A stretch of DNA of 64,000 nt from Candidatus Hydrogenedentota bacterium (GTDB lineage: Bacteria; Hydrogenedentota; Hydrogenedentia; Hydrogenedentales; SLHB01): the NCBI GenBank assembly GCA_963745075.1, contig CAVUWV010000020.1, positions 160,001 through 224,000 on the forward strand. The letters are read 5' to 3'. Positions 43,791 through 61,742 of the stretch are shown here, one piece after another (position 1 is the first letter of the stretch; the number at the start of each line of letters is the position of its first letter). The notes under the pieces are model-generated. The model was not told where the DNA came from, did no database searches, and saw only the letters and a program-made list of their open reading frames with translations. A program made the translations under genes and the position numbers.

Positions 43791-44891
43791 GTGGTTCAGG
43801 TAAAGGCGGCATTCATACACGAACGCTACGTCTGGTTGGACCAGGCCCGTGGCATCATTGCGTTGCTGTTCATTATCTCCGCGCTCACGTGGGCCCATCG
43901 AGGTGATTTGCTCTTGGGTGTGCCACTACTCGGCCCGACCTACCTCGACCACGGGTACAATTACTACAACGGATCTCCGCCGATGATTACGCTCATCGAT
44001 GTGGGACAGTCTATCTTTCTCTTCTTCGTCGGCCTGACCGGGTACATCGCATTCTCCAGCCGCCTCCGAAAACGCGGCGCAAAGGGCGCTTTGGTATACG
44101 GCTTGCAGCGCGTGCTGATGCTTTACGTGCTTAGTGTCATGGGGGAGTTGATTGGTGACGCATCCGGTGAGGCCGGGCTCAACATCGGATTACTCATGGA
44201 GAAATTCGACTGGCAGATGGTCTTTTTGAAAGACATCATGGCCGTCATCGCCGCCGGCGCCGCCGCGACCTATCTGGCGGTGTATTTTGTGCCCAACGCG
44301 GATCGCCGGGCCTGGATCGCCATCGGCATCTTTGCGGTGCACGCGCTTGCCTATGCAGCGTACGTGGTCGATCGGCACTCCTCTGTCGACGACGTATTGG
44401 GCCTCCCTCAGTTACCCATCGGGACCATCGCGCTGGCGGGCCTGTCCATTCTCGGCTCGTGTTTTGGACAATGGCTGCGATACGATCCCGAGGATGTTCT
44501 CGTCGGCATGCGCAAGCGCATCGTTCCCGTGACAGGGTATTGCCTGCTGGTTTCCTACTGCCTGGAGTGGATCCAGCACAGCGATCCGCACGACGACACG
44601 GCGGCGCTCATGCTCCTTGCTGCGGGCCTCTCGGGGCTCTTGCTGGTGTTTATGTACGGCCTGAACAGCATCGGAATCGAACTGCCCATTCTTACACCGT
44701 TGGGTAAGAACCTGTTGCTCGTATTCATAATTGGAGCTATCGGGTTCGACTTCTATTTCGAGCTGATTCCCGATTGGTTGATCTACGGCTATCCCTTCGG
44801 AGCGCTGCTCTTCATCGGATTCCTCCCCTTGTATGCCTTGGTGCTGCTGACCCGGTTTCTGGATCGGCACAACATCATCATTCGGGTGTAG
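43791..44891 (+). CDS. HGSNAT/DUF1624-like membrane acyltransferase
   Basis: LDQARG, TLID....IFLFFVG; many TM helices. Confidence 0.6.
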   Translation: MVQVKAAFIHERYVWLDQARGIIALLFIISALTWAHRGDLLLGVPLLGPTYLDHGYNYYNGSPPMITLIDVGQSIFLFFVGLTGYIAFSSRLRKRGAKGALVYGLQRVLMLYVLSVMGELIGDASGEAGLNIGLLMEKFDWQMVFLKDIMAVIAAGAAATYLAVYFVPNADRRAWIAIGIFAVHALAYAAYVVDRHSSVDDVLGLPQLPIGTIALAGLSILGSCFGQWLRYDPEDVLVGMRKRIVPVTGYCLLVSYCLEWIQHSDPHDDTAALMLLAAGLSGLLLVFMYGLNSIGIELPILTPLGKNLLLVFIIGAIGFDFYFELIPDWLIYGYPFGALLFIGFLPLYALVLLTRFLDRHNIIIRV

Positions 44892-44964: not shown

Positions 44965-46509
44965 TCATCGGGGACGGGCCCAACGTTCCTGCGGTAAATG
45001 GAGCACGTCGATGTCGAGGGTGTCATTCAATTGATCTGGCCCCGGCGTGCTGCGACCGCGAGCGACATAGTCGTTGAGGAGGTTGAGTAAATCCTGGACC
45101 ATCTCAGGATGCGTCGCGCTCAGGTCCCGGGTCTCGGCCCAGTCAACATCGACGTTGTATAGTTCGAACGTTGGGTCCTTGTCTTTCTCCGCATAGATGA
45201 TGAGTTTCCAGGGTCCCCGCCGGATGCCGAACCGGCCCCAGCGATCGTGATGCACGATAGCCTTACGCACAGGACGCCGGGTCTTGCCGCGGAAAACGGG
45301 CAGCATGTCAAAGCTATCTTCGCCGGCAGTGGCCGGGACATTAGCACCGATGACGTTGGCGCAAGTAGCCATGATGTCGGTCAGACAGATCAACCGATCG
45401 GTCGAAGTCCCGGGTTCGATCTGCCCGGGCCAGCGCACGATGAACGGCACGCGGTGGCCGCCTTCCCAAATTTGGGCCTTGTGTCCGCGGTACGGCCCGC
45501 TGGGCTGGTGACCGGCCGCAATCAATTCCTCCCAACCGGTGTAGTGGGAGTGGCCGTTATCGGCGGTGAAGATCACCAGCGTGTTATCCGCAACCCCGGC
45601 ATCGTCGAGGGCCTGGATTACCTGGCCGGCCGACCAGTCTGTTTCCATGACCAAATCGGCAACCGGCGCAATTCCGCTCTTGCCTTTGAATGGTTCGGAC
45701 GGCGCGATAGGCTCGTGAGGTGTGGTCATGGAAAAGTACAGGAAGAAGGGAGATTCCTCCTGCGCTTGTTGGTGGACGTAGTTCACGGCGCGCTCGGTAG
45801 TGGTCGGCAGGATCTCGTCGAAGCGCCACCCCGGCGCCATGGGAGCCCCCGGAAATCCGATGTGCATTTCGCGGTCTTCCACGTTCTTTGCGGTCGGCTG
45901 AATCAGGATATGGTCGTTCTCGATAAACGTGAAGGGCGGGAAGTTGGGGACGTGCGTTCCGAAATAGTAATCGAATCCGCGCGTCGTGGGGCCGGATTCG
46001 ATGGGCGCGGTGAAATCCGGTTTCTTCGCGCGGCCTTCGCCTTCCCCACTCCAATCCCAGCCCAAGTGCCACTTACCGAAACACGCCGTGTGATACCCGT
46101 GTTGTTGGAGCATTTTCGGGAGCGTCAGTCGATCTTCGGCAATGAGCGGCGGTTCGTAGGCGTCGATGACCCACTCCTGCAGGCAGGTGCGCCAGGCGTA
46201 GCGTCCCGTCAGTAACCCGTAGCGCGTCGGCGTGCACACCGCCGAACCGCTGTGGGCGTCGGTGAAAACCAGCCCTTCCTCGGCAAACGTATCCAAGAAA
46301 GGCGTTGGAATCTTGCCGCGAGGGTATAGCGATTGCACGTCCCCCACGCCCATGTCATCGGCAAGAATCACGACAATATTCGGGAAACCCGGCCGGTACG
46401 GATCACGGGTCTGACAAGCCGCCACGGAACCCGCCAGTGCAACGGTGGAGGTTCGCAGAAAGGCTCTGCGGCTCACGTTGCGCGTCTTGTTCGTGTCGGA
46501 TCGCTCCAT
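44965..46509 (-). CDS. Arylsulfatase (Cys-type, S1) with Tat-lipoprotein signal
   Basis: SRRAFL...VAAC; NIVVILADDMG, CTPTRYGLLTGRY, GKWHLG, ADNG, EGGHRVPFIVRWP. Confidence 0.93.
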   Translation of the reverse strand: MERSDTNKTRNVSRRAFLRTSTVALAGSVAACQTRDPYRPGFPNIVVILADDMGVGDVQSLYPRGKIPTPFLDTFAEEGLVFTDAHSGSAVCTPTRYGLLTGRYAWRTCLQEWVIDAYEPPLIAEDRLTLPKMLQQHGYHTACFGKWHLGWDWSGEGEGRAKKPDFTAPIESGPTTRGFDYYFGTHVPNFPPFTFIENDHILIQPTAKNVEDREMHIGFPGAPMAPGWRFDEILPTTTERAVNYVHQQAQEESPFFLYFSMTTPHEPIAPSEPFKGKSGIAPVADLVMETDWSAGQVIQALDDAGVADNTLVIFTADNGHSHYTGWEELIAAGHQPSGPYRGHKAQIWEGGHRVPFIVRWPGQIEPGTSTDRLICLTDIMATCANVIGANVPATAGEDSFDMLPVFRGKTRRPVRKAIVHHDRWGRFGIRRGPWKLIIYAEKDKDPTFELYNVDVDWAETRDLSATHPEMVQDLLNLLNDYVARGRSTPGPDQLNDTLDIDVLHLPQERWARPR

Positions 46510-46959
46510 ACCAGGTGCTCTCCTCTCGTCATCGACGGATTGTATGGTGTTCCGTAACTTCATGGCGACATGTGATGAGCCAGCATAGCAGATCCGGCTC
46601 CGGCGCGGCGGTCGGACGGTGCGGTCCGGTACGCTGATTTGGTGAGGCAACGAACGGTTGTTAGTGGGAGAACGAACTGACGTGGAAACGAAACGACCGG
46701 CCGACGCGAGGTGGCAAGTCCCTCCCATGGTTTCCTGCCGCCATAACCGCACGGTTCGTCGCCAACCATTGTGTCGCCGATCAATGCCACGACGACTCCC
46801 ACAAGCCATTGAAGCGCTTTGCGTTGCACCCAGCCACCCATACCCGTCGCACCGTGGGCGACGGCAGTCAGGATTGAAACGTTACCGAACTCGGTCTATC
46901 ATGCACTCGTTCGCGCGGCCTGCGGGGAAATGGCGCCGCGCACTGAAAGGGGGCATTAG

Positions 46960-48285
46960 ATGTCTACGCAAGGTGTATCGATTTCCAACCGACCTTCCCG
47001 CCGTGACTTCCTGATTGCTTCGGGCGCCGCGACCGCGAGCGTGTCGCTGGGGCTGGGCAGCCGCGCATACGGCGCGTCGGTCGAGAAACTTGCCGTCGCG
47101 GGTGGACCCAAAGCGGTTACCGTCGATACGAGCGACGCCACGAAATGGCCGCAATACGGCGAAACCGAGGAGCAGGCCGTCCTCAAGCTGCTGCGTGCGC
47201 CGAACTACGATCCCAATGGGGAACTGGAAAAGGAATGGGCGGAGTTTCTGGATGTGCCGTACTGCTCGTCGCACTGCAACGGCACGAGCGCCTTGTGTTC
47301 TATGTTCTTCGCGTTGAACCTGCCGCCGGGCAGCGAAATCATGGTGCCGAGTTATACGTTCTTCGCCACGATCGTGCCCATGCGTCTGTTCGGTTTCGTT
47401 CCCAATTTTGTCGACATCAATCCGCGCACGCTGAACTTCGACCTCGAAGACGCCAAGAAGCGGCTCACACCGAACACCAAGGCCGTCTTGCCGGTGCACT
47501 GGATTGGCTTGCCGGCCGACATGGACCATATCAGCGATTGGGCCAACGAGAAAGGTCTGATCGTTCTCGAAGATTCGGCGCATGCGCACGGCGCCAGCCT
47601 TAAAGGCAAGAGAATGGGGTCCTGGGGCCGGATGAGCATTTTCAGCTATCAGGCGTCCAAACCGCTCCCGGCGATCGAGGGCGGCATGGGCGTGTACCAG
47701 AATGAGGAAGACTTCGGCCGCGCGACGGCCTTCGGCAATTACGATATGCGCGGCATGACCGAAAACATGCCGTACTACAAGTACAAGGGTTCGGGGCTGG
47801 GCCTGAAATTCCGGATGCACCCCATCGCGGCGGAACTCGCGCGGTGCCAGTTGCACGGCTTGGTCGAGCGCAACGACGCCGGCGCGGCGCAGGTACGGAG
47901 CCTTAACGACCGCATCCTCGAACTTCCAGGGCTCTACGAACAGTCCAGTCACCGGGACGACGTGCATCGCCTGTATTACGCGTGGAACATGCTCTTCATC
48001 GACGAGGCGGAAGTCGGCGTATCGCGGGATAAGCTGATCGAGGCCCTGACCGCGGAGGGCGTCAACGTCACCGGACGTCACTACACGCTGCAACATGAAC
48101 TGCCGCTCTATGCGGAAGAACAGTGGTGGCACCACAAGCCCGTGATCCCTGAACTGCCGGGGTCCACGCAAGCCAACGACACGTGTCTCGGGCTGCCATT
48201 TTTCACGAAGCAGGTACCGGAACTTTGCGACCAGTACGCGAATGCCTTCGAGAAGGTCTGGGCGCACCGCAAGGAACTTGCGTGA
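46960..48285 (+). CDS. DegT/DnrJ/EryC1/StrS PLP aminotransferase with twin-arginine signal
   Basis: SRRDFL + hydrophobic stretch + AYG; NGTSAL, PSYTFFAT, PVHW.G, EDSAHAHG, FSYQASK(PLP Lys)...EGG. Confidence 0.9.
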   Translation: MSTQGVSISNRPSRRDFLIASGAATASVSLGLGSRAYGASVEKLAVAGGPKAVTVDTSDATKWPQYGETEEQAVLKLLRAPNYDPNGELEKEWAEFLDVPYCSSHCNGTSALCSMFFALNLPPGSEIMVPSYTFFATIVPMRLFGFVPNFVDINPRTLNFDLEDAKKRLTPNTKAVLPVHWIGLPADMDHISDWANEKGLIVLEDSAHAHGASLKGKRMGSWGRMSIFSYQASKPLPAIEGGMGVYQNEEDFGRATAFGNYDMRGMTENMPYYKYKGSGLGLKFRMHPIAAELARCQLHGLVERNDAGAAQVRSLNDRILELPGLYEQSSHRDDVHRLYYAWNMLFIDEAEVGVSRDKLIEALTAEGVNVTGRHYTLQHELPLYAEEQWWHHKPVIPELPGSTQANDTCLGLPFFTKQVPELCDQYANAFEKVWAHRKELA

Positions 48286-48338
48286 GCGTGTCCGTGCCAC
48301 GGGAGCGACTACTGCTTCGTACATACCTTTGAGACAAC

Positions 48339-48466
48339 CTCGTAATCGTAATCGAGGCTTTGGTCTCAAATAGAACGGGAAAGACGATTTCGGTCGAATC
48401 CTGCACTTTGACCTGAATTTGATGGTGTTTTGTCGATTACGACAACGATTACGAGCGCGATTACGA
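48339..48466. repeat. Intergenic CGATTACGA short-repeat element, inverted arrangement
   Basis: CTCGTAATCGTAATCG (48339-48354) faces three CGATTACGA copies at 12-bp period (48434, 48446, 48458). Confidence 0.7.
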
Positions 48467-48524
48467 TCGGGGAAGTCGTCGTGGGTTAACCTGCGTTTCA
48501 TGGTGTCAATAGAGGGGGTTCTGT

Positions 48525-49382
48525 ATGAACAGGGGAATCATCGGGATTCTTTGTGTCTGTTGCGGGCTTTCGATGACCGCGGGATGCGCGTCCACCGCGG
48601 GTGGAATGCAAGACAACGCGCCGTGGCCGTTGGCGGTGCGCATCATGAGCTACGGCGACTATCAGGAGGCCGGGTGGGCGCAGCTTCAGCAGATCGGCGT
48701 CAAGTACATCTTTATGTCGGTGCCCGCGCCCGGTGAGGTGGACGCTGCCAAACAGAAGCTGGCGCGGTATGAGCTGACGCCGCTCGTGTTTCGTGGCAGC
48801 GCGGACCTGAGCAAGGAAACCTTTGCCCAGGACCTCGAGCCGCAGCTTGCGGTCTGCGAAGCGATGGGTGTGAAGTACCTGTTCCTTTCGGCCAAGCGGG
48901 GAGATGCGCCCAAGGAAGCCGCATATCAACGGCTGCGCGCCGCAGGTGACAAAGCAAAGAAACACCGCGTCACCATTGCGCTGGAAACCCACCCGGATCT
49001 CGGCACGAACGGCGCGGTTCAGGTCGAAACGATGAAGTCGGTCAACCATCCCAATATCCGCGTCAATTTCGACACCGCGAACATCACGTACTACAATCAC
49101 GACACGAGCGCCGTGGATGAACTCAAGAAGAGCATCGATTACGTGGCCACGGTCGAGTTCAAGGACCACAACGGCGGATTCGAGACATGGGACTTCCCCG
49201 TTCTGGGTCAGGGCAACGTGGACATCCCATCCATCATTTCCATGCTGCGCGCGAAAGGGTACGCCGGGCCGGTGACACTCGAATTCGAAGGGACGGAAGG
49301 CGTCAAACTCGATCAGGAACAGACCCTGCAGGCCATCGCCGATTGTGTCGCATACGCGCGATCCGTGGGTAACTTCAACTAG
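48525..49382 (+). CDS. Sugar phosphate isomerase/epimerase (AP endonuclease 2/xylose isomerase-like TIM barrel) lipoprotein
   Basis: Lipobox TAG-C; IALETH, NFDTAN, EFKD, G.G.VD, GY.GP.TLE. Confidence 0.85.
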   Translation: MNRGIIGILCVCCGLSMTAGCASTAGGMQDNAPWPLAVRIMSYGDYQEAGWAQLQQIGVKYIFMSVPAPGEVDAAKQKLARYELTPLVFRGSADLSKETFAQDLEPQLAVCEAMGVKYLFLSAKRGDAPKEAAYQRLRAAGDKAKKHRVTIALETHPDLGTNGAVQVETMKSVNHPNIRVNFDTANITYYNHDTSAVDELKKSIDYVATVEFKDHNGGFETWDFPVLGQGNVDIPSIISMLRAKGYAGPVTLEFEGTEGVKLDQEQTLQAIADCVAYARSVGNFN

Positions 49383-49398
49383 CGGGAGACGTGGAATC

Positions 49399-51120
49399 AT
49401 GCCGGTGACGCAGGGGCACTTCGAGTTTCCCGACATTTTGATGATTGTGGGGTATTTCGTACTGATGCTCGGGATCGGCGCGTACTTCTACAATCGCATG
49501 CGCCGCATGAAGGATTTCTTCAGCGGCGGTAACCGTATCCCGTGGTGGCTGAGCGGCGTCTCGTTTTACATGAGCAGTTTCAGCGTCGCGGCCTTCGTCT
49601 TTTATCCCGGCCTGTGTTATCGCTACGGCTGGGTGGGTATTACCCTGTTGTGGGTGGCGATCCCGGCAACGATCTTCAGCGTGATGCTTTTCGCCGTCCG
49701 CTGGCGAAGGGCGCGGATCGATAGTCCGGTCGAGTACCTTGAAACGCGGTACAGCTCGTTCCTCCGGCAACTCTTCGCGTGGCACGGCATTCCGGTTAGA
49801 ATGGTGGACGACGGGATTAAACTCACCGCAACGGCGACGTTTATCTCAGTTTGCGCCAACGTCAGTCTCACGAATAGCATTCTCGCAGCGGGCATCATTA
49901 TTCTCATCTACACGTTTATGGGTGGTCTCTGGGCGGTGACCGTAACGGACTTCATTCAGTTTGTGGTCCTCGCGGTGGGTGTCATCATCATCCTCCCCCT
50001 TTCGATAGCAAAGGCAGGGGGTATCAACACCGTCCTTACCCAGGTTCCCGAAGGGTTCTTTCGTTTGACGTCGGACGAATACGGCTGGAGCTACATCATA
50101 CCGCTCGTACTCATGTATGCCCTGGCCTGGAGCAGTATCAATTGGTCGCTTATCCAGCGGTATTACTGCGTGCCGAGAGAGCGCGACGCGCTCAAAGTGG
50201 GCTGGCTCGTGGTGGCGCTCTACGTGATAGGTCCGCCTCTCATGTTTTTTCCAGCCATTGCGGCGCGGCAATTCATTCCCGAGTTGGAGGATGCGGGGCA
50301 GATTTATCCCCTACTTTGCACACAGCTCCTGCCCGCCGGCATGCTCGGTCTCGCCGTGGCCGCCATGTTCGCAGCGACCATGTCGACGTTGAGTTCCGAC
50401 TACAACGTGTGCGCGGGGGTATTGACGAACGACGTATACCGCCGCCTGGTTCGGCCCGACGCGTCGCAGAAAGAGCTTGTGCTCGTAGGACGGTTCATGA
50501 CTTTACTCGTCGGAATCGTGGCACTCCTCACCGCGATCCTCATGTCTCACGGCGCTGCCGAAGGACTATTCCCGAAGATGGTCACGCTGTTTGGTCTGGC
50601 CACCGCGCCGGTAGCGGTGCCCATGTTGCTGGGTCTCGTGTCGCGGCGGTTCACGAATCTCAGCGCAGTGCTCGGGTGCGTGTTCGGACTCGCCGTGGGA
50701 CTAGCGCTATTCCTATTCGGCCCAAAAGACGAACTGACGATCGCCGGTCTGACGATGAAAATGGAAATCGTTCTCATTTTGAGTACCGCTACAGTAACGT
50801 TAGCCGTCATGATCGTCGTGAGCGCGATCGCGCCGGCGGGTCCCTCGGCACAGGCCCGTACCGACGAGTTCTTGCGCCGCATTGAAATTCCAATTGGCGA
50901 CCTTCCCGAAGACGAGGATTCGGCCTCTACTGAAGGCGCCTTTTCGCCCTTCCGGGTCGTGGGGATCTCGGTTGGTTTGATTGGGCTGCTGTTGCTGGGC
51001 GTCCTTCCCTGGGTCAGTGGCCGGACGGAAGTCTTGCTCGCAGGAGCAATCGGTGCGATCCTCGCGGTGGTGGGAGGTCTTGTGACGTGGGCCAGTAAAA
51101 GGCCGGTCCAGGCGTCGTAA
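49399..51120 (+). CDS. Sodium:solute symporter (SSS family)
   Basis: DFFSGG.RIPWWL.G.S, EYLE.RY, YTFMGG.WAV..TD..Q, QRY, AATMSTLSS. Confidence 0.93.
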   Translation: MPVTQGHFEFPDILMIVGYFVLMLGIGAYFYNRMRRMKDFFSGGNRIPWWLSGVSFYMSSFSVAAFVFYPGLCYRYGWVGITLLWVAIPATIFSVMLFAVRWRRARIDSPVEYLETRYSSFLRQLFAWHGIPVRMVDDGIKLTATATFISVCANVSLTNSILAAGIIILIYTFMGGLWAVTVTDFIQFVVLAVGVIIILPLSIAKAGGINTVLTQVPEGFFRLTSDEYGWSYIIPLVLMYALAWSSINWSLIQRYYCVPRERDALKVGWLVVALYVIGPPLMFFPAIAARQFIPELEDAGQIYPLLCTQLLPAGMLGLAVAAMFAATMSTLSSDYNVCAGVLTNDVYRRLVRPDASQKELVLVGRFMTLLVGIVALLTAILMSHGAAEGLFPKMVTLFGLATAPVAVPMLLGLVSRRFTNLSAVLGCVFGLAVGLALFLFGPKDELTIAGLTMKMEIVLILSTATVTLAVMIVVSAIAPAGPSAQARTDEFLRRIEIPIGDLPEDEDSASTEGAFSPFRVVGISVGLIGLLLLGVLPWVSGRTEVLLAGAIGAILAVVGGLVTWASKRPVQAS

Positions 51121-51245
51121 TACGACACGGGATATCGGAGCTGAATCACCTCGCACTGTACCCGGGAAATCACGTGCCAAGCCTTTGTTTGACGGCTCAG
51201 TCACAAGATGGAATCCCGCTCGAGTCCCATTCCGAGTCCTAACAA

Positions 51246-51277
51246 CGAGAGGCGGCCGGTAGTCCGGCCGCCTCTCG
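51246..51277. terminator. GC-rich hairpin between convergent genes (probable terminator)
   Basis: Perfect 14-bp stem CGAGAGGCGGCCGG-tagt-CCGGCCGCCTCTCG; only a weak T-rich tail on the minus strand. Confidence 0.65.
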
Positions 51278-51318
51278 CGTGCAATCTGTCCAACGTCGCG
51301 TTCGGACGTATATAGAAA

Positions 51319-52644
51319 TTACGTAATCTCGGGCACCACGAACGGATCGCGGTAGTAGTCCTTCAGCATCGCGTTCGCTTCATCGTCGTTCTTGAACATC
51401 CCCGCGTCGGGATCGAATTCAAGCGACCGTTGCAGACGGTAGGCGATGTTGCCGAGATGAATGTGCGCGCAGGAAACAAACGCGTCGTCAGGGTTCCCGT
51501 GGATCTTATCCCAGTCGCGGTTCTTGACCGATTCCAGGAAGTTCCCGAAACATCCCTTGGACGGCGGTTTCTCGGCGTTATCCGGAATCGCAATGGGTTT
51601 GTTTTGATAATCGAAGAAACCGCGCTCCTTCACCCAGTACCCGTCGGTGCCGAAGGCGCTGTTCGCGCAGGCGTCATCGCAGTCCTCGGGGAACGAACCC
51701 AGGTTCCGCACTTCAAACGTCAGCATGGTGCCGTCAGCGTAAGTGAAATCGATTTGCTGCGTGTTCGGGGTCTGGCCGTCGTCGTCCCACTTGTAGCGGT
51801 TACCCGTGCTGTAGACGCGTACGGGCAGTCCTTTGTGCGCGGCCCAGGCCGCAACGTCCATTTCGTGGACGCCCTGATTCCCGCTTTCGCCGTTGCCGAA
51901 ATCCCAGAACCAATGCCAATTATAGTGCACGAAGAGGCCGCCCGGATCGTTACGCACATCGCCGCCCTCGCGCCACATCCACTGGCGTTCGGCCGCCGGT
52001 CCCAGCCAGAGGTTGTAATCCAGGAACTCCGGCGGATCCCCGGGTTTGCCTTTGCCGATGCTTGCGCGGTTGCCGTTCTTGTACACGTAGCCGCGGGCGT
52101 GAACCACCGGCCCGATGATTTCGCCCTTGTGGAGCAGATTCATGTCGCGGATCCGTTCGGGATCGGAGCGCTGCTGCGTACCGTGTTGCACGACGCGGTT
52201 GTACTTTCGCGCCGCTTTCACGAGTTGCTGGCCTTCCCAGAAGCTGTGGGCCATGGGCTTCTCGACGTACACGTCTTTGTTCGCCTGGCAACCCCAGGTC
52301 GCGGCGAGGGCGTGCCAGTGGTTGGGCGTGGCAATGCTGATGGCGTCGATGGAATCATCGGCGAGCGCGTCACGCAAGTCGCGATAGGCCTTGGGTTTCT
52401 TCCCGGTCTTCTGTTCGATTTGTTTGACGCGCGCGTCGAGGACACGCTGGTCAACGTCGCACACAGCGACAACGTCCGATCCGTCCTCTTCGACGAAGGC
52501 TTCGATGTGGGAGCCCCCTCGCCCGTGCAGACCGATGCAACACATGTTGATCCGATCATTTGCTCCGAAGGCGGTGCGTGGGAGCACCGTCGCGGCCGCA
52601 ACTGCCGCCGACGTGCCCAGGAATGTTCTACGCGATATGCTCAT
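51319..52644 (-). CDS. Gfo/Idh/MocA NAD(P) oxidoreductase with Tat signal
   Basis: SRRTFL; IG..GRG, IATPNHWH, DVYVEKP, GTQQRS, GVHEMD. Confidence 0.93.
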   Translation of the reverse strand: MSISRRTFLGTSAAVAAATVLPRTAFGANDRINMCCIGLHGRGGSHIEAFVEEDGSDVVAVCDVDQRVLDARVKQIEQKTGKKPKAYRDLRDALADDSIDAISIATPNHWHALAATWGCQANKDVYVEKPMAHSFWEGQQLVKAARKYNRVVQHGTQQRSDPERIRDMNLLHKGEIIGPVVHARGYVYKNGNRASIGKGKPGDPPEFLDYNLWLGPAAERQWMWREGGDVRNDPGGLFVHYNWHWFWDFGNGESGNQGVHEMDVAAWAAHKGLPVRVYSTGNRYKWDDDGQTPNTQQIDFTYADGTMLTFEVRNLGSFPEDCDDACANSAFGTDGYWVKERGFFDYQNKPIAIPDNAEKPPSKGCFGNFLESVKNRDWDKIHGNPDDAFVSCAHIHLGNIAYRLQRSLEFDPDAGMFKNDDEANAMLKDYYRDPFVVPEIT

Positions 52645-53237: not shown

Positions 53238-56200
53238 ATGTATCGCGTCGTGGGATTGCTATTTGTCACCACCATTCTGAGCATGACGGCATCCGCCCAG
53301 GAGCCGGCATGGACCTACATGCCACCTTCCGGCGTGATCGACTCGTCGCCTGCGTTGGGTGACCTGGACCTGGACGGCAATGTGGAGATCGTTGTCGGCA
53401 CAACATGTCCGGGCAGGTTATCGCCCTGGACGAGAAAGGGCGCGATATCTGGCAATACGAGATGCGTGGCCCCATTCACATGGCACCCACGATTACCGAT
53501 CTGAACAACGACGGAAAACCCGAGGTGCTGGTCGCGAACCGGCAGGGCCAGATCCGGTGTCTGGACGGCGCCGGCGGGAACGTCCTCTGGGAAGCGGCAC
53601 TGCCCGCGTTCATCAATTGGGGTATGACGGAAATCGCCGTGTCGGACCTCGACGGCGATGGAAAGGCCGAGGCCGTGACGGGCGACCGTGAAGGCTCCGT
53701 GCTTTGCGTGAACGCTGACGGTACGCAAGAGTGGCTATACAAGGGCGACCACGGTGAGACCTTGTGCCCGGCCCTTGCCGATCTCGATGGTGACGGCCCG
53801 CAGGAAGTCGTCGTGGGTGGGACACAGGTTCCGCTCGTCTGTCTGGACGCAAACGGCAAGGAATTGTGGCGTCTCGATGCCGGTAGCCGTGGGTCCAGCC
53901 CGATTGTCTGCAACCTTGACGGGAAGGGGTCCATGGAAATCGTCGTGGGAATCGACCAATCGCTGGCGGCGGTTGACCACGCGGGCAAACTGCTATGGAC
54001 GCAACCGATGCACGACACCATCGATAGCGCCATTTCCGCCGCTGACGTCAATGGCGACGGGGCCGTCGAAATCGTGGCCGTCGATCTCTCGGGCTACGCG
54101 GCGTGCGTCTCGTCTGACGGGAAACTGTTGTGGTCGGGCGACGTGGAAGAGCGCGCGCGCCGGTCGCCATCCATTGGCGACGTGGACGGGGACGGCGAGG
54201 TGGAGATCCTTATCGCCGGATACAGCGGCGCGATTCACGTGTTCGGACCGGACGGTAAGCTGGAGGAGCGCATCGCACTTGAGGGCTCCCCCAATGCAAC
54301 GGCTACGCTCGCACGTTTCGACGACGGCGGGCTGTACATGATCTGCCCCACCGACAGCCTGATGCAGGTGTATCGCTGGCCCGATGCCAAACCGGATGCC
54401 ACGATGCTGTGGCCGGAATATCGGTTCAACTCCGCCCGGACCGGCACGCCGGAATTGCCCGCGTCGCGGTCCAACGTGCGGATTGCTCGCATCGATTTCG
54501 GCGAGCGTTACGTCGGCTCCAACGCGTTTTCCGTGACCGTCGAAAACCCGGACGCCGAACCACTCGAACGTCAAACTGGCGATCGGCGTGAATCAGCAAG
54601 AACCGTCGCGAGCGGACGTATCGAGCGCGGAAACACAAATCGAACATCAAATGCCGTACACAATCTCCGGCAATGCGACGGAGAACCTCACATTCAGTTG
54701 CACCGTCCTTCAGAACGGAGAGGTCGTCGCGCGACGCACGCACACCGACTACGTCGTGCCTTTCGTCAATGAGGTCTCCGATGCGGAACGCGCCCTGGCG
54801 GACACGAAGAATCGTCTGTCTCATCTCGCGGTCACGTCGCGGCCGAAAGAGCGGTGGTACCTGTTGCAGGGCCGGTTGGACGAATTGCGGGACCGCGCAA
54901 ACGCGGCCAGCGCGTACAGCGATGACACGCGGCGTACCTTGCGCGACGATCTGCGGGAACTGGTGGCTCAGTCGCAAACGCTTCAGCAAATGGTCATCGC
55001 TGCCGATCAAGCCGGCACACCGCTGCTTGTGTGCGCGGCCAATCCATGGGCGCCGTTCGGCGGCATGGAGGAACTCGTCGAAGGCCGCGCGACGCCGCCG
55101 GACCTGTCGGTGGAAGCTTTCGCCGGCGAAACGGAATCCGCCGCGCTGAATCTGTTCAACTTCACCGACATCGCGCGCACGTTTCGCGTGGAAGTCGCCG
55201 ATCTCACGCTGGGCGACCAGTCCGTCGCGGCCAGGAATACCGTGCACCTCCACGAAGTCGTGGCCGTTCCCACGGAAATGCGGGACTATTCCGCCGACGC
55301 GATCCCGGAACTGTCCGACGCGCGCATCATCACCGTCCCGGCATGGGACGCGCGCCAACTTTGGCTGAACGTGGAGACGAGCGCATTAATGCCCGGCGAA
55401 TGGAGTTCCGCCGTGCACGTGCGAAGTCTCGATCCCGAACCCATCGAGGCCGCCGCGCCGCTTTCCGTCACGGTATGGAACGCGCACCTGCCCAAAACCC
55501 AGCCCATTCGTTCGTGCCAGTGGGGCTACGTGCACAGCTCCATGTTGCGCGATTATCCGCAGGAAGCGTTGGAGGACCAGGTGCGCCACGGCACGAACGT
55601 GTTCGTGGGCCTTTTTCCGCCCAAGGCCACATACGACGAAGACGGGAACCTTGGACCAATCGACTTTGCCGAGCACGACGCCTACGTCAAAGCGCACGGG
55701 CCTCACGGACTGATTCTCTTCTTCAATTACCAGCACGCGTTGAAAGGGCCCGGGGACCGGGATTCCGAGGCGTTTCACAAAGCCCACGTGGCGTGGCTGC
55801 GGGCCTGGGTGAAGCATTTAGCTGAACTCGGGGTGGGATACGACGGTTTTGCGCTGTATCCCGTAGACGAACCCGGGCTTCGCGACGGCTTGGTCGAGAC
55901 CTACCTCGTCTTCGCCCAACTCGCACGGGAAGCCGACCCGAAGATTCATCTGTACACCGATCCCGTCGGCCGCATCACCGCCGAGGAACTGGAACGCATG
56001 ACGCCATACGTGGACATCTGGTGCCCGAACCGAAACGGGCTCCTGCTGCACGAGAATGCGGACAAGTTCGCCGTCATCCAGAATAGCGGCGCGACGGTCT
56101 GGACCTACGAATGCGACGGCAACGCGAAGCACCAATCGCCATTGGGGTATTATCGGGCGCAGGCATGGCTGGCTTGGCACGATGGCCTCACCGGCATCGG

Positions 56201-56594
56201 GTTCTGGTCGTATTGCACGTCGAGCGCCGATCCGTGGTTCCGGCCGGAGGCTACGAAGGACTACCTGCTCGTATACCCCGGAAAAGGCGTCATCTCGAGC
56301 AAGCGCTGGGAAGCCGTTCGCGATGGGATCGAGGATTACAGCATGCTCTGGGTATTGCGCCAGGCGGTGAACGATCGTCCAAGCGCAGATGCAAAAACGC
56401 GAGACGCTGCGCAGAAACTGTTGGAAACCGACGCTTCCGCCGTCGCGCAATTCTGTGGCCTGGACTCGGATGACACGCAACCCCGGAAGGACGGCTTGCG
56501 GGGCGTGCGGGCGCTGGCGGACCGGCGTTGGTCCACCATACAGGAGACCCGGCGCGAACTGGCCGGTCTATTGTCCGAGTTGATCGCGAATTAG
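53238..56594 (+). CDS. Large secreted protein: FG-GAP/PQQ-like propeller fused to a GH123/DUF4091-like domain (frameshifts near 53405 and 54568)
   Basis: Signal peptide MYRVVGLL...ASAQ; repeated DLDGDG..E.V; C-terminal VDEP, DIWCP, G.GFW.Y, LVYPG, SSKRWEAVRDGIEDY; three ORF-track pieces join into one frame-corrected gene. Confidence 0.75.
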
Positions 56595-60699: not shown

Positions 60700-60898
60700 C
60701 GTCCCCCCATTTTTCGACTTCCCAGTGATGCGCGACAATTAATTATCTTGTTACTCGCCAGGCAATTCAATCTGTCGCGGAAGCCACCGTGATTCGCAAT
60801 ATGCAGCGATTCGTGTTTGCAGACCGGCACGACTAAAATGAAGTCGGGCGTTTGCCAATGTGGGGGAAACCGGCCAACCAGATTCAACGGAGGCAATC

Positions 60899-61742
60899 AT
60901 GATCGAGCTGGGCATGCACACGGACAACTGGCGCCCGCTGAGCGGGGGATTCAATCAGGCGGCGGAGACCGCGGTCAAGTACGGCATTCAACACCTCGAA
61001 TTTGTCGCGATCCACGGCCAGTACTTCATCCAAGCCATGGGTTATGAGCCGGGCATTTCGTTGGAATCCAATCCGCGCGCGTTGAAACGCTACTGTGACA
61101 AGCGGGGCCTGAAGATCTCGCAGATCGACGGCGCGTACCCGCTCATGGGGCCCGACGGCTCGACCTACGGCGTGCAGTACGTCCGGCAATGCATTCGCTT
61201 TGCGGCGGAACTGGACTGCCCCATGGTGGACACCACCGACGGCGCTTCCACCATCGAGGGCCTCAGCCGCGACGAAGTCTTCCGCATCACCTGCGACAAC
61301 TATCGGCAGGTGCCTGTCCTGGGCGGAGGACTACAAGATCGTCATCAACGTCGAGCCGCACGGCCCCTATACGAATGACGGGGAGTTCATGCTCAAGCTG
61401 TTCAAGTATTTCGATTCCGAATGGCTGCGCTGCAATTTTGATACCGGCAATTCCTTCATCGCGGGCCACGACCCGCTGGAGTACCTGAAGACCTTGCGCC
61501 CGTACGTTTCGCACTGCCACATCAAGGATGTAAGCGAAGGGTTGGCCGCCGCCGCCCGCGGCGAAGACACCGGTATCGCGTGCAGCGAAGTCCCCATCGG
61601 CGGCGGCGTCAACGCCGGCAACATCACGAACTGCCTCGCCTTCCTGAACGAAACCAACTGGGACGGCGTCGTCTCCCTCGAATGCTACGGCTCCGACGAA
61701 AACATACAGAAGAGCGTGGAGTTCCTGCGCGCGTTGGTATAA
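60899..61742 (+). CDS. Cytoplasmic sugar phosphate isomerase/epimerase TIM barrel (+1 frameshift near 61309)
   Basis: INVEPHG, NFDTGN, HCHIKD, G.G...VSLE; CAG-G-TGC extra base. Confidence 0.85.

What the first reader, a model, noticed from the sequence alone, without database searches (positions are those of the whole stretch)
46960..52644. Candidate exported amino-sugar/3-keto-glycoside catabolic system built on a Tat-signal DegT aminotransferase
Seen in sequence: a DegT/StrS aminotransferase with a clear twin-arginine signal (SRRDFL), followed on the same strand by a TIM-barrel isomerase-family lipoprotein and an SSS importer. A Tat Gfo/Idh/MocA oxidoreductase converges on them and a Tat sulfatase is divergent. 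Established: characterised DegT enzymes are cytoplasmic and biosynthetic (nucleotide-sugar or aminocyclitol transamination, often at C3/C4). Gfo/Idh/MocA dehydrogenases plus AP-endonuclease-2-like barrels form non-hydrolytic 3-keto-glycoside elimination pathways. Inference: the exported PLP enzyme could run in reverse, converting an amino-sugar or aminoglycoside-like glycoside into a keto-glycoside. The barrel would then cleave or epimerise it and the SSS import the product. No NDP-sugar biosynthesis genes are nearby.
Basis: partly seen in the sequence, partly recalled or inferred. Interest (0 to 1): 0.72.

Follow-up and report, generated by a model that had tools for sequence, protein, structure and literature searches.

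The report
Exported amino-sugar deaminate-cleave-import module
Three genes here (an exported vitamin-B6 aminotransferase, an exported metal barrel enzyme and a sodium symporter) are inherited together across about half of an uncultured bacterial phylum, and likely form an undescribed route that strips the amino group from an unusual amino sugar outside the cytoplasm so it can be cut or rearranged and taken up.

Summary
Observation confirmed; interpretation partly. The DegT aminotransferase (46960-48285) carries a twin-arginine signal kept in 112 of 120 homologs and an intact PLP site. It belongs to a distinct exported clade closest to non-nucleotide enzymes (Fic25, SerTA, BtrR). The conserved unit is three genes: Tat-DegT, exported AP_endonuc_2 barrel, SSS symporter. 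In 135 genomes of the host phylum (Ca. Hydrogenedentota by homolog names), DegT and barrel co-occur almost perfectly (66 both, 4 and 1 alone, 64 neither). The SSS ortholog occurs only in DegT-positive genomes (58 of 58). Most carriers hold a second Tat-DegT paralog, often in the same operon, and a ceramidase-fold amidase is a frequent neighbour. The Gfo oxidoreductase and sulfatase are not part: they do not track the module, and the genome has 70 and 64 homologs. The barrel keeps the E-x-H motif of keto-glycoside eliminases, with an all-carboxylate metal site. Most likely: periplasmic de-N-acylation, transamination to a keto sugar, elimination or rearrangement, import. Substrate, C3 specificity and direction are untested. 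Not found in print in my searches; other windows of this scan noted Tat-DegT/amidase pairs.

The parts
46874..46902 (+). sigma70-like promoter match (TTGAAA-17-TATCAT) 57 nt upstream of the Tat start codon; weak evidence
   Evidence: 4 sites found versus 3.0 expected in shuffles
46960..47076 (+). twin-arginine signal peptide of the DegT enzyme (SRRDFL, Ala/Gly-rich h-region; cleavage near residue 38-39 inferred)
46960..48285 (+). Tat-bearing DegT/StrS PLP aminotransferase, paralog A; D205, H208, S229, Q231, K234, E240, K283, R285 kept
48340..48475 (.). intergenic imperfect palindrome made of a CGTAAT/ATTACG-type repeat found many times in the genome; not specific to the module
48525..49382 (+). 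exported AP_endonuc_2 TIM barrel; invariant E154-T-H156, D183, N186, E211, K213-D-H215, E253
49399..51120 (+). sodium:solute symporter, best solved relative SiaT (5NV9); conserved D137-D138 where SiaT aligns Arg135
51246..51277 (.). 14-bp perfect hairpin between the converging SSS and Gfo genes, likely a shared terminator
   Evidence: z -6.4 and -7.7
51319..52644 (-). Tat Gfo/Idh/MocA oxidoreductase: neighbour only, not part of the module
44965..46509 (-). Tat sulfatase: neighbour only, not part of the module

Best explanation
The Tat-signal aminotransferase, the exported barrel and the symporter are a co-inherited three-gene module that likely works in the periplasm to scavenge an unusual amino sugar: the PLP enzyme would remove the amino group to give a keto sugar, the barrel would cleave or dehydrate it by metal-assisted beta-elimination, and the symporter would import the product. 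Shown: signals, intact catalytic motifs, operon order, co-inheritance, the second paralog and the amidase neighbour. Inferred: export itself; the catabolic direction; de-N-acylation by a ceramidase-fold amidase as the step before (in this genome encoded on contig C1); elimination (about 60%) rather than isomerisation or epimerisation (about 35%) by the barrel; and different amine positions or stereoisomers for the two paralogs (B has Thr-Trp where A has Thr-Phe at the PLP-stacking site). How PMP is recycled (a periplasmic 2-oxoacid, or the released keto sugar) is open.
For: Tat motif in 104 of 108 rows of the clade and 112 of 120 homologs. PLP residues equivalent to those tested in SerTA are kept. 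Best profile and fold hits are non-NDP enzymes: Fic25 216 bits, TM 0.81; SerTA 178; BtrR 170. All NDP-sugar equivalogs score far below cut-off. DegT and barrel: 66 both, 4 DegT only, 1 barrel only (a contig-end fragment), 64 neither, of 135 genomes; the link persists where the genes lie on different contigs (e.g. G036, G085, G007). SSS ortholog in 58 genomes, all DegT-positive. Barrel co-oriented within 2.5 kb of a DegT in 39 of 46 loci with room; SSS within two genes of the barrel in 29 of 39. One barrel-SSS fusion, P0186. Ceramidase-fold genes in 17 of 51 genome loci and 24 of 80 metagenome loci, mostly one orthogroup; a formamidase-like gene sits directly upstream in two Verrucomicrobia. 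Barrel E154-x-H156 matches the metal ligand plus catalytic His of CGE/OGE eliminases (PMC10628242, passages) and the H-x-H of AL1/BT1 (bioRxiv 2024.03.25.586180, parts 1-3 of 4). Precedent for Tat-exported deaminating PLP enzymes: PtaA (PMC6206403, passages).
Against: No activity data; no substrate can be read from the neighbours. No glycosidase or outer-membrane transporter is conserved with the module. The barrel is only 13-21% identical to any solved structure; Art22 (an isomerase) is the top match (Z 27.3), and IolE, UlaE and ketose 3-epimerases follow at Z about 25. Its beta-7 ligand is Glu, unlike the His of the known eliminases. The NDP-sugar enzyme Pcryo_0638 scores 168 bits, level with BtrR. 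Some clade members lack the barrel ortholog (L080, L082, L089). The amidase also occurs in 22 genomes without the module and is not adjacent here. Kin are not independent, so the co-occurrence figures overstate the number of events.
Confidence: 0.55

Rival explanations
1. Transient-deamination cycle (a variant of the best explanation): the PMP formed on the amino-glycoside is recycled by re-aminating the keto monosaccharide that the barrel releases, so the net reaction is hydrolysis of an amino-glycoside and the symporter imports the free amino sugar.
For: No reductase or 2-oxoacid source is conserved in the module. The NAD pathway is proposed to recycle its cofactor on the released 3-ketoglucose and cannot attack 3-amino glycosides (bioRxiv 2024.03.25.586180). 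The SSS has D137/D138 (63 and 64 of 64) where SiaT aligns R135 (R135 as carboxylate ligand is recalled). Sister SSS proteins with the same DD motif lie beside a class-III aminotransferase in 3 of 5 loci fetched, two from one genus.
Against: K141, one helical turn away, is also conserved and may neutralise the Asp. One barrel would have to both eliminate and hydrate. Two paralogs are not needed for a closed cycle.
Confidence: 0.15
2. The substrate is an aminocyclitol or aminoglycoside fragment (inosamine, streptamine type): two transaminases remove two amines and the barrel acts as an inosose isomerase or dehydratase.
For: BtrR/RbmB are among the top profile hits. IolI is the second sequence hit and IolE the third fold match of the barrel. 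55 of 70 carriers give two or more DegT matches (counted; matches are not copy numbers).
Against: No IolD or IolE over cut-off in this 90% complete genome. No iol genes cluster with the module. A neighbouring amidase fits N-acyl sugars better.
Confidence: 0.1
3. The substrate is an open-chain N-acyl-2-amino-1,3-diol (aminoalditol, sphingoid or nonulosonate side chain): amidase, then transaminase to a ketose-like 1,3-dihydroxy-2-one, then C3 epimerisation.
For: The closest structure, Fic25, interconverts an acyclic 5,7-dihydroxy-6-oxo and 6-amino chain (PMC11726168, part 1 and passages). The amidase's only solved relatives are neutral ceramidases. Ketose 3-epimerases share the barrel fold. The SSS's best hit is the sialic-acid carrier SiaT.
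Against: An amine flanked by hydroxyls is common to most DegT substrates. Identity to Fic25 is only about 30%. Ketose epimerases lack the His two residues after the metal Glu (recalled). SiaT's Arg is replaced.
Confidence: 0.08
4. Periplasmic biosynthesis or tailoring: the enzyme adds amines to a keto group on an exported glycan or metabolite, in the way PtaA and PvdN tailor pyoverdine in the periplasm.
For: Characterised DegT enzymes are biosynthetic; periplasmic PLP tailoring exists.
Against: An importer and amidases are the conserved partners. No glycosyltransferase, flippase or synthetase is conserved; an NAD-dependent epimerase is near in only 2 of 73 loci.
Confidence: 0.08
5. The RR leader does not export the protein (vestigial, or a membrane tether), and the enzyme is cytoplasmic.
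For: Export was not measured; the h-region is only mildly hydrophobic (mean Kyte-Doolittle 0.57).
Against: The motif is kept across paralogs A, B, C and a second clade. The partner barrel has a leader in 50 of 51 orthologs, while 69 of 78 sister-clade barrels, which are not DegT-linked, have none.
Confidence: 0.04

Closest known systems
AL1-4 / BT2156-2159 periplasmic 3-keto-glycoside pathway (bioRxiv 10.1101/2024.03.25.586180) and the OGE/CGE eliminases (PMC10628242)
   Same: A Tat-exported cofactor enzyme makes a keto sugar and an exported AP_endonuc_2 barrel with a (H/E)-x-H motif acts on it.
   Different: Entry is by PLP transamination (inferred), not NAD oxidation; no conserved Gfo or DUF1080; barrel beta-7 ligand is Glu; an SSS importer and an amidase are partners; that pathway cannot act on 3-amino glycosides.
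PtaA and PvdN, Tat-exported PLP enzymes of pyoverdine tailoring (PMC6206403)
   Same: PLP enzyme exported folded by Tat; PtaA removes an amine in the periplasm.
   Different: Not DegT family (recalled); they tailor a siderophore; no barrel or importer.
Fic25/Vzb9/SerTA (DADH aminotransferases) and BtrR/RbmB
   Same: Closest solved DegT enzymes; non-nucleotide substrates; same PLP site.
   Different: Cytoplasmic and biosynthetic; about 23-31% identity. SerTA pairs an active chain with a Lys-less one, whereas both paralogs here keep the Lys and their own Tat signal.
Ong pathway for GlcNAc1A (PMC9537276)
   Same: De-N-acylation, then PLP-dependent deamination, with an SSS importer.
   Different: OngB and OngC act in the cytoplasm after import; OngC is a fold-type III deaminase (passages).

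Membership tests
DegT/DnrJ/EryC1/StrS aminotransferase (PF01041) | Pfam score over cut-off and fold-type I structure | tested here: met
   228.8 bits versus 19.8; TM 0.81 to Fic25
DegT/DnrJ/EryC1/StrS aminotransferase (PF01041) | Schiff-base Lys and PLP Asp, Ser, Glu, Arg | tested here: met
   D205, S229, K234, E240, R285 invariant in 55 rows; equivalents described
Named NDP-sugar transaminases (PseC, ArnB, DesI, WecE, LegC, RfbH) | NCBIfam curated cut-off | tested here: not met
   best 152.8 versus 423.5 bits
Named NDP-sugar transaminases (PseC, ArnB, DesI, WecE, LegC, RfbH) | nucleotide-binding pocket | not testable with these tools
   model coordinates could not be inspected or docked
Tat substrate | conserved [ST]RRxFL followed by h-region; TatC in genome | tested here: met
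Tat substrate | TatC-dependent translocation | not testable with these tools
   needs fractionation or a reporter assay
AL/BT 3-keto-glycoside pathway | co-inherited NAD-dependent glycoside 3-dehydrogenase | tested here: not met
   Gfo scores 130.5 versus 750 for BT_2158_fam and does not track the module
AL/BT 3-keto-glycoside pathway | DUF1080 alpha-lyase/hydratase in the cluster | tested here: inconclusive
   none among conserved neighbours; not searched genome-wide
3-keto-glycoside eliminases (OGE/CGE/AL1) | (H/E)-x-H on beta-5, Asp beta-6, Glu beta-8 | tested here: met
   E154-T-H156, D183, E253 invariant in 37 rows; reference residues
3-keto-glycoside eliminases (OGE/CGE/AL1) | His metal ligand on beta-7 | tested here: not met
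   E211 invariant in the exported clade; His in 75 of 78 sister-clade barrels
3-keto-glycoside eliminases (OGE/CGE/AL1) | elimination activity on keto-glycosides | not testable with these tools
   needs an assay
IolE / UlaE / Hyi | NCBIfam cut-off | tested here: not met
   25-40 bits versus 200-353
SiaT-type sialic acid symporter | Arg135 and Thr63 equivalents (their role is recalled) | tested here: not met
   Asp and Ala at the aligned positions

The most novel reading that the evidence does not exclude
A PLP-based non-Koshland glycoside-cleaving system: a periplasmic aminotransferase turns a 3-amino (or de-N-acylated) glycoside into the keto form that NAD enzymes cannot reach, the barrel eliminates the aglycone, and the same cofactor hands the nitrogen back to the freed keto sugar for import. 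This would be the missing degradation route for amino-blocked sugars of bacterial envelopes and antibiotics.
Probability: 0.2. Interest if true: 0.88.

Novelty: new variant of a known kind. Interest (0 to 1): 0.66.

Why it matters
DegT enzymes are known as cytoplasmic makers of amino sugars. An exported, catabolic clade coupled to one barrel and one importer in 70 of 135 genomes of a phylum whose loci here come largely from environmental MAGs points to a common, unknown substrate. How bacteria degrade rare N-acyl amino sugars of other microbes' envelopes and of natural products is poorly known (own knowledge), and the periplasmic 3-keto pathway is reported to fail on 3-amino glycosides. This module gives a small, defined gene set to test that gap, and asks how PMP is recycled in a periplasm.

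Tried and rejected
Gfo and sulfatase as members: rejected. glpK-phnX-phnW upstream of the barrel in five metagenome loci: one lineage, with variable loss, taken as rearrangement. Cytoplasmic sister barrels: 26 of 401 Planctomycetota genomes; no DegT in 20 of 20 loci fetched and varied neighbours, so no substrate clue; no plasmid match for P0125. Inositol route: IolD and IolE not found over cut-off in this genome. Heterodimer of paralogs A and B: not needed for export, since each has its own signal and Lys, and some near-complete genomes give one match; not tested by folding. Complex prediction of DegT with the barrel was not available, so binding is untested. No RNA holder was listed. Literature: ten full-text searches listed no paper on a Tat-exported DegT enzyme or this module; subscription journals are largely not covered, the Fic25 and Art22 papers were not seen, and bioRxiv supplements were closed (the SI of the 3-keto preprint holds its aminoglycoside tests). 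The 73-locus counts contain duplicates, so counts are given on the 51-locus set. Genes in loci were called by my own heuristic, which clips signal peptides and some SSS genes. The careful amidase tree did not finish; the quick one was used. The amidase figure at 580 bits or more (51 of 52 in DegT-positive genomes) is biased by how the profile was built and is not relied on.
Full report
Observation. The DegT protein (46960-48285) opens with SRRDFL and an Ala/Gly-rich stretch, behind an SD-like run. The motif is in 112 of 120 best homologs, with synonymous variation in the Arg codons. In this genome only it and one paralog (C12:150154-151557, 53% identical) of 15 DegT homologs carry it, and TatC is present. 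Named homologs place the host in Ca. Hydrogenedentota.

What belongs together. In 51 related genome loci the barrel is present in 39 (39 of 46 with room), and an SSS follows it within two genes in 29 of those 39. Across 135 genomes of the phylum the DegT clade is in 70 and the single-copy barrel in 67, with 66 shared (phi 0.93). The SSS ortholog (55% or more) is in 58, all DegT-positive. Kin are not independent, but the pattern is patchy inside family f1 (25 of 53 for both genes) and holds where the genes lie on different contigs. The Gfo fails these tests: phi 0.14 for the broad group and -0.04 for close orthologs, adjacent in one other genome of the same genus, and set off by a 14-bp hairpin. 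The sulfatase ortholog is adjacent in one other locus. This genome has 70 Gfo and 64 sulfatase homologs, so such neighbours are expected by chance.

Further parts. 55 of 70 carriers give two or more DegT matches, often as DegT-A, barrel, SSS, DegT-B in one operon. A FastTree of 134 rows shows one long-stemmed clade of 108 (support 0.82; 104 with Tat) holding paralogs A, B and C, plus a second clade (7 of 9 with Tat) that also lies beside the barrel. All keep the catalytic Lys; B differs at the PLP-stacking site. A ceramidase-fold amidase (PF04734) is in 17 of 51 genome loci and 24 of 80 barrel-centred metagenome loci, mostly one orthogroup; its best match in this genome is on C1. An unnamed beta-propeller protein is in 19 of 80 loci and never together with the SSS (45 of 80), and is sometimes fused to the barrel; many of these loci are short or redundant. 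One protein fuses a barrel that has lost its catalytic residues to the SSS (P0186). Three clade-A loci from Verrucomicrobia and a planctomycete have no barrel ortholog in their genomes.

Enzyme anatomy. The DegT model (pLDDT 90.7) and profile rank Fic25, SerTA and BtrR first, but an NDP-sugar enzyme is level with BtrR, so the lean toward non-nucleotide substrates is mild. The barrel model (pLDDT 92.4) matches Art22 (Z 27.3, rmsd 2.2 over 239 residues), then IolE, UlaE and ketose 3-epimerases near Z 25, all at 21% identity or less. Its invariant E154-T-H156, D183 and E253 match the metal and catalytic His of CGE/OGE eliminases (PMC10628242, passages) and AL1/BT1 (bioRxiv 2024.03.25.586180, parts 1-3 of 4). 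E211 replaces the usual His, which 75 of 78 sister-clade barrels keep; an all-carboxylate site would favour Mg or Ca (inference). The SSS is nearest SiaT but has conserved Asp where SiaT aligns Arg135, and sister carriers lie beside a class-III aminotransferase in 3 of 5 loci: a weak hint of an amine cargo.

Mechanism. Most likely a periplasmic scavenging route: an amidase unmasks the amine, the Tat-DegT converts it to a ketone, the barrel eliminates or dehydrates (less likely isomerises), and the SSS imports the product (0.55). Gene content, signals and motifs are shown; every reaction is inferred. A closed cycle that returns the nitrogen to the freed keto sugar (0.15) would solve the amino-acceptor problem, as the NAD pathway is proposed to recycle its cofactor; that preprint also reports that 3-amino glycosides resist it. 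Aminocyclitol (0.10; no IolD or IolE here), acyclic amino-diol (0.08), periplasmic biosynthesis (0.08) and no export (0.04) remain.

Comparison and novelty. It works like the AL/BT 3-keto pathway in layout, like PtaA in exported deaminating PLP chemistry (PMC6206403, passages; PMC13673990, passages, lists only those enzymes for PLP) and like the cytoplasmic Ong route in step order (PMC9537276, passages), but is a member of none. Ten literature searches listed nothing on it. Other windows of this scan reported Tat-DegT genes with amidases; those are unchecked notes, not support. What this locus adds is the near one-to-one tie to one exported barrel and one importer. Verdict: real, conserved, undescribed; narrower than proposed; interest 0.66.

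Noticed in passing
window 60860-61742 (+): An AP_endonuc_2 barrel is split into two overlapping ORFs covering Pfam positions 5-109 and 106-248; a frameshift or an assembly error.
   Followed up: no
window 53405-56594 (+): FG-GAP beta-propeller and GH123-like ORFs overlap by about 185 nt and look like one frameshifted gene.
   Followed up: no
window 48340-48475: CGTAATCGTAATCG-type palindromic repeat; 58 exact copies of the 14-mer in the genome, REP-like.
   Followed up: partly
window 43791-44891 (+): 366-aa multi-pass membrane protein with no Pfam or NCBIfam hit; its LDQARG start recalls acyltransferase-like families (recalled).
   Followed up: no
L034:10737-12077; L154:8956-10311; weaker homolog at G000:C1:196161-197351: Unnamed exported beta-propeller of about 450 aa, common in Acidobacteriota and Bacteroidota clusters, that takes the SSS's place beside the barrel and is sometimes fused to it.
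   Followed up: partly
L234:6283-10384 (G000:C1 about 121-125 kb): Operon of a sister SSS, a Gfo dehydrogenase and a class-III aminotransferase: a possible cytoplasmic amino-polyol route.
   Followed up: partly
L227:12980-19037 and L228:11006-13871 (G000:C1 203-224 kb): SiaT-like SSS, non-Tat DegT and Gfo, with two ceramidase-fold amidases about 13 kb away.
   Followed up: partly
L059, L070, L072, L084, L086, L147: In these loci (five named as planctomycetes) a third, non-Tat DegT lies in the module; LacI/XylR-type regulators are near in several planctomycete loci.
   Followed up: partly
L080:6891-7958; L082:6906-7973: DMFA2_C (dimethylformamidase-like) gene directly upstream of the Tat-DegT in two Verrucomicrobia that lack the barrel ortholog.
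   Followed up: partly
P0186; P0122: Fusions: degenerate barrel plus SSS (867 aa, one sequence); alpha/beta-hydrolase plus barrel (644 aa, two members).
   Followed up: partly
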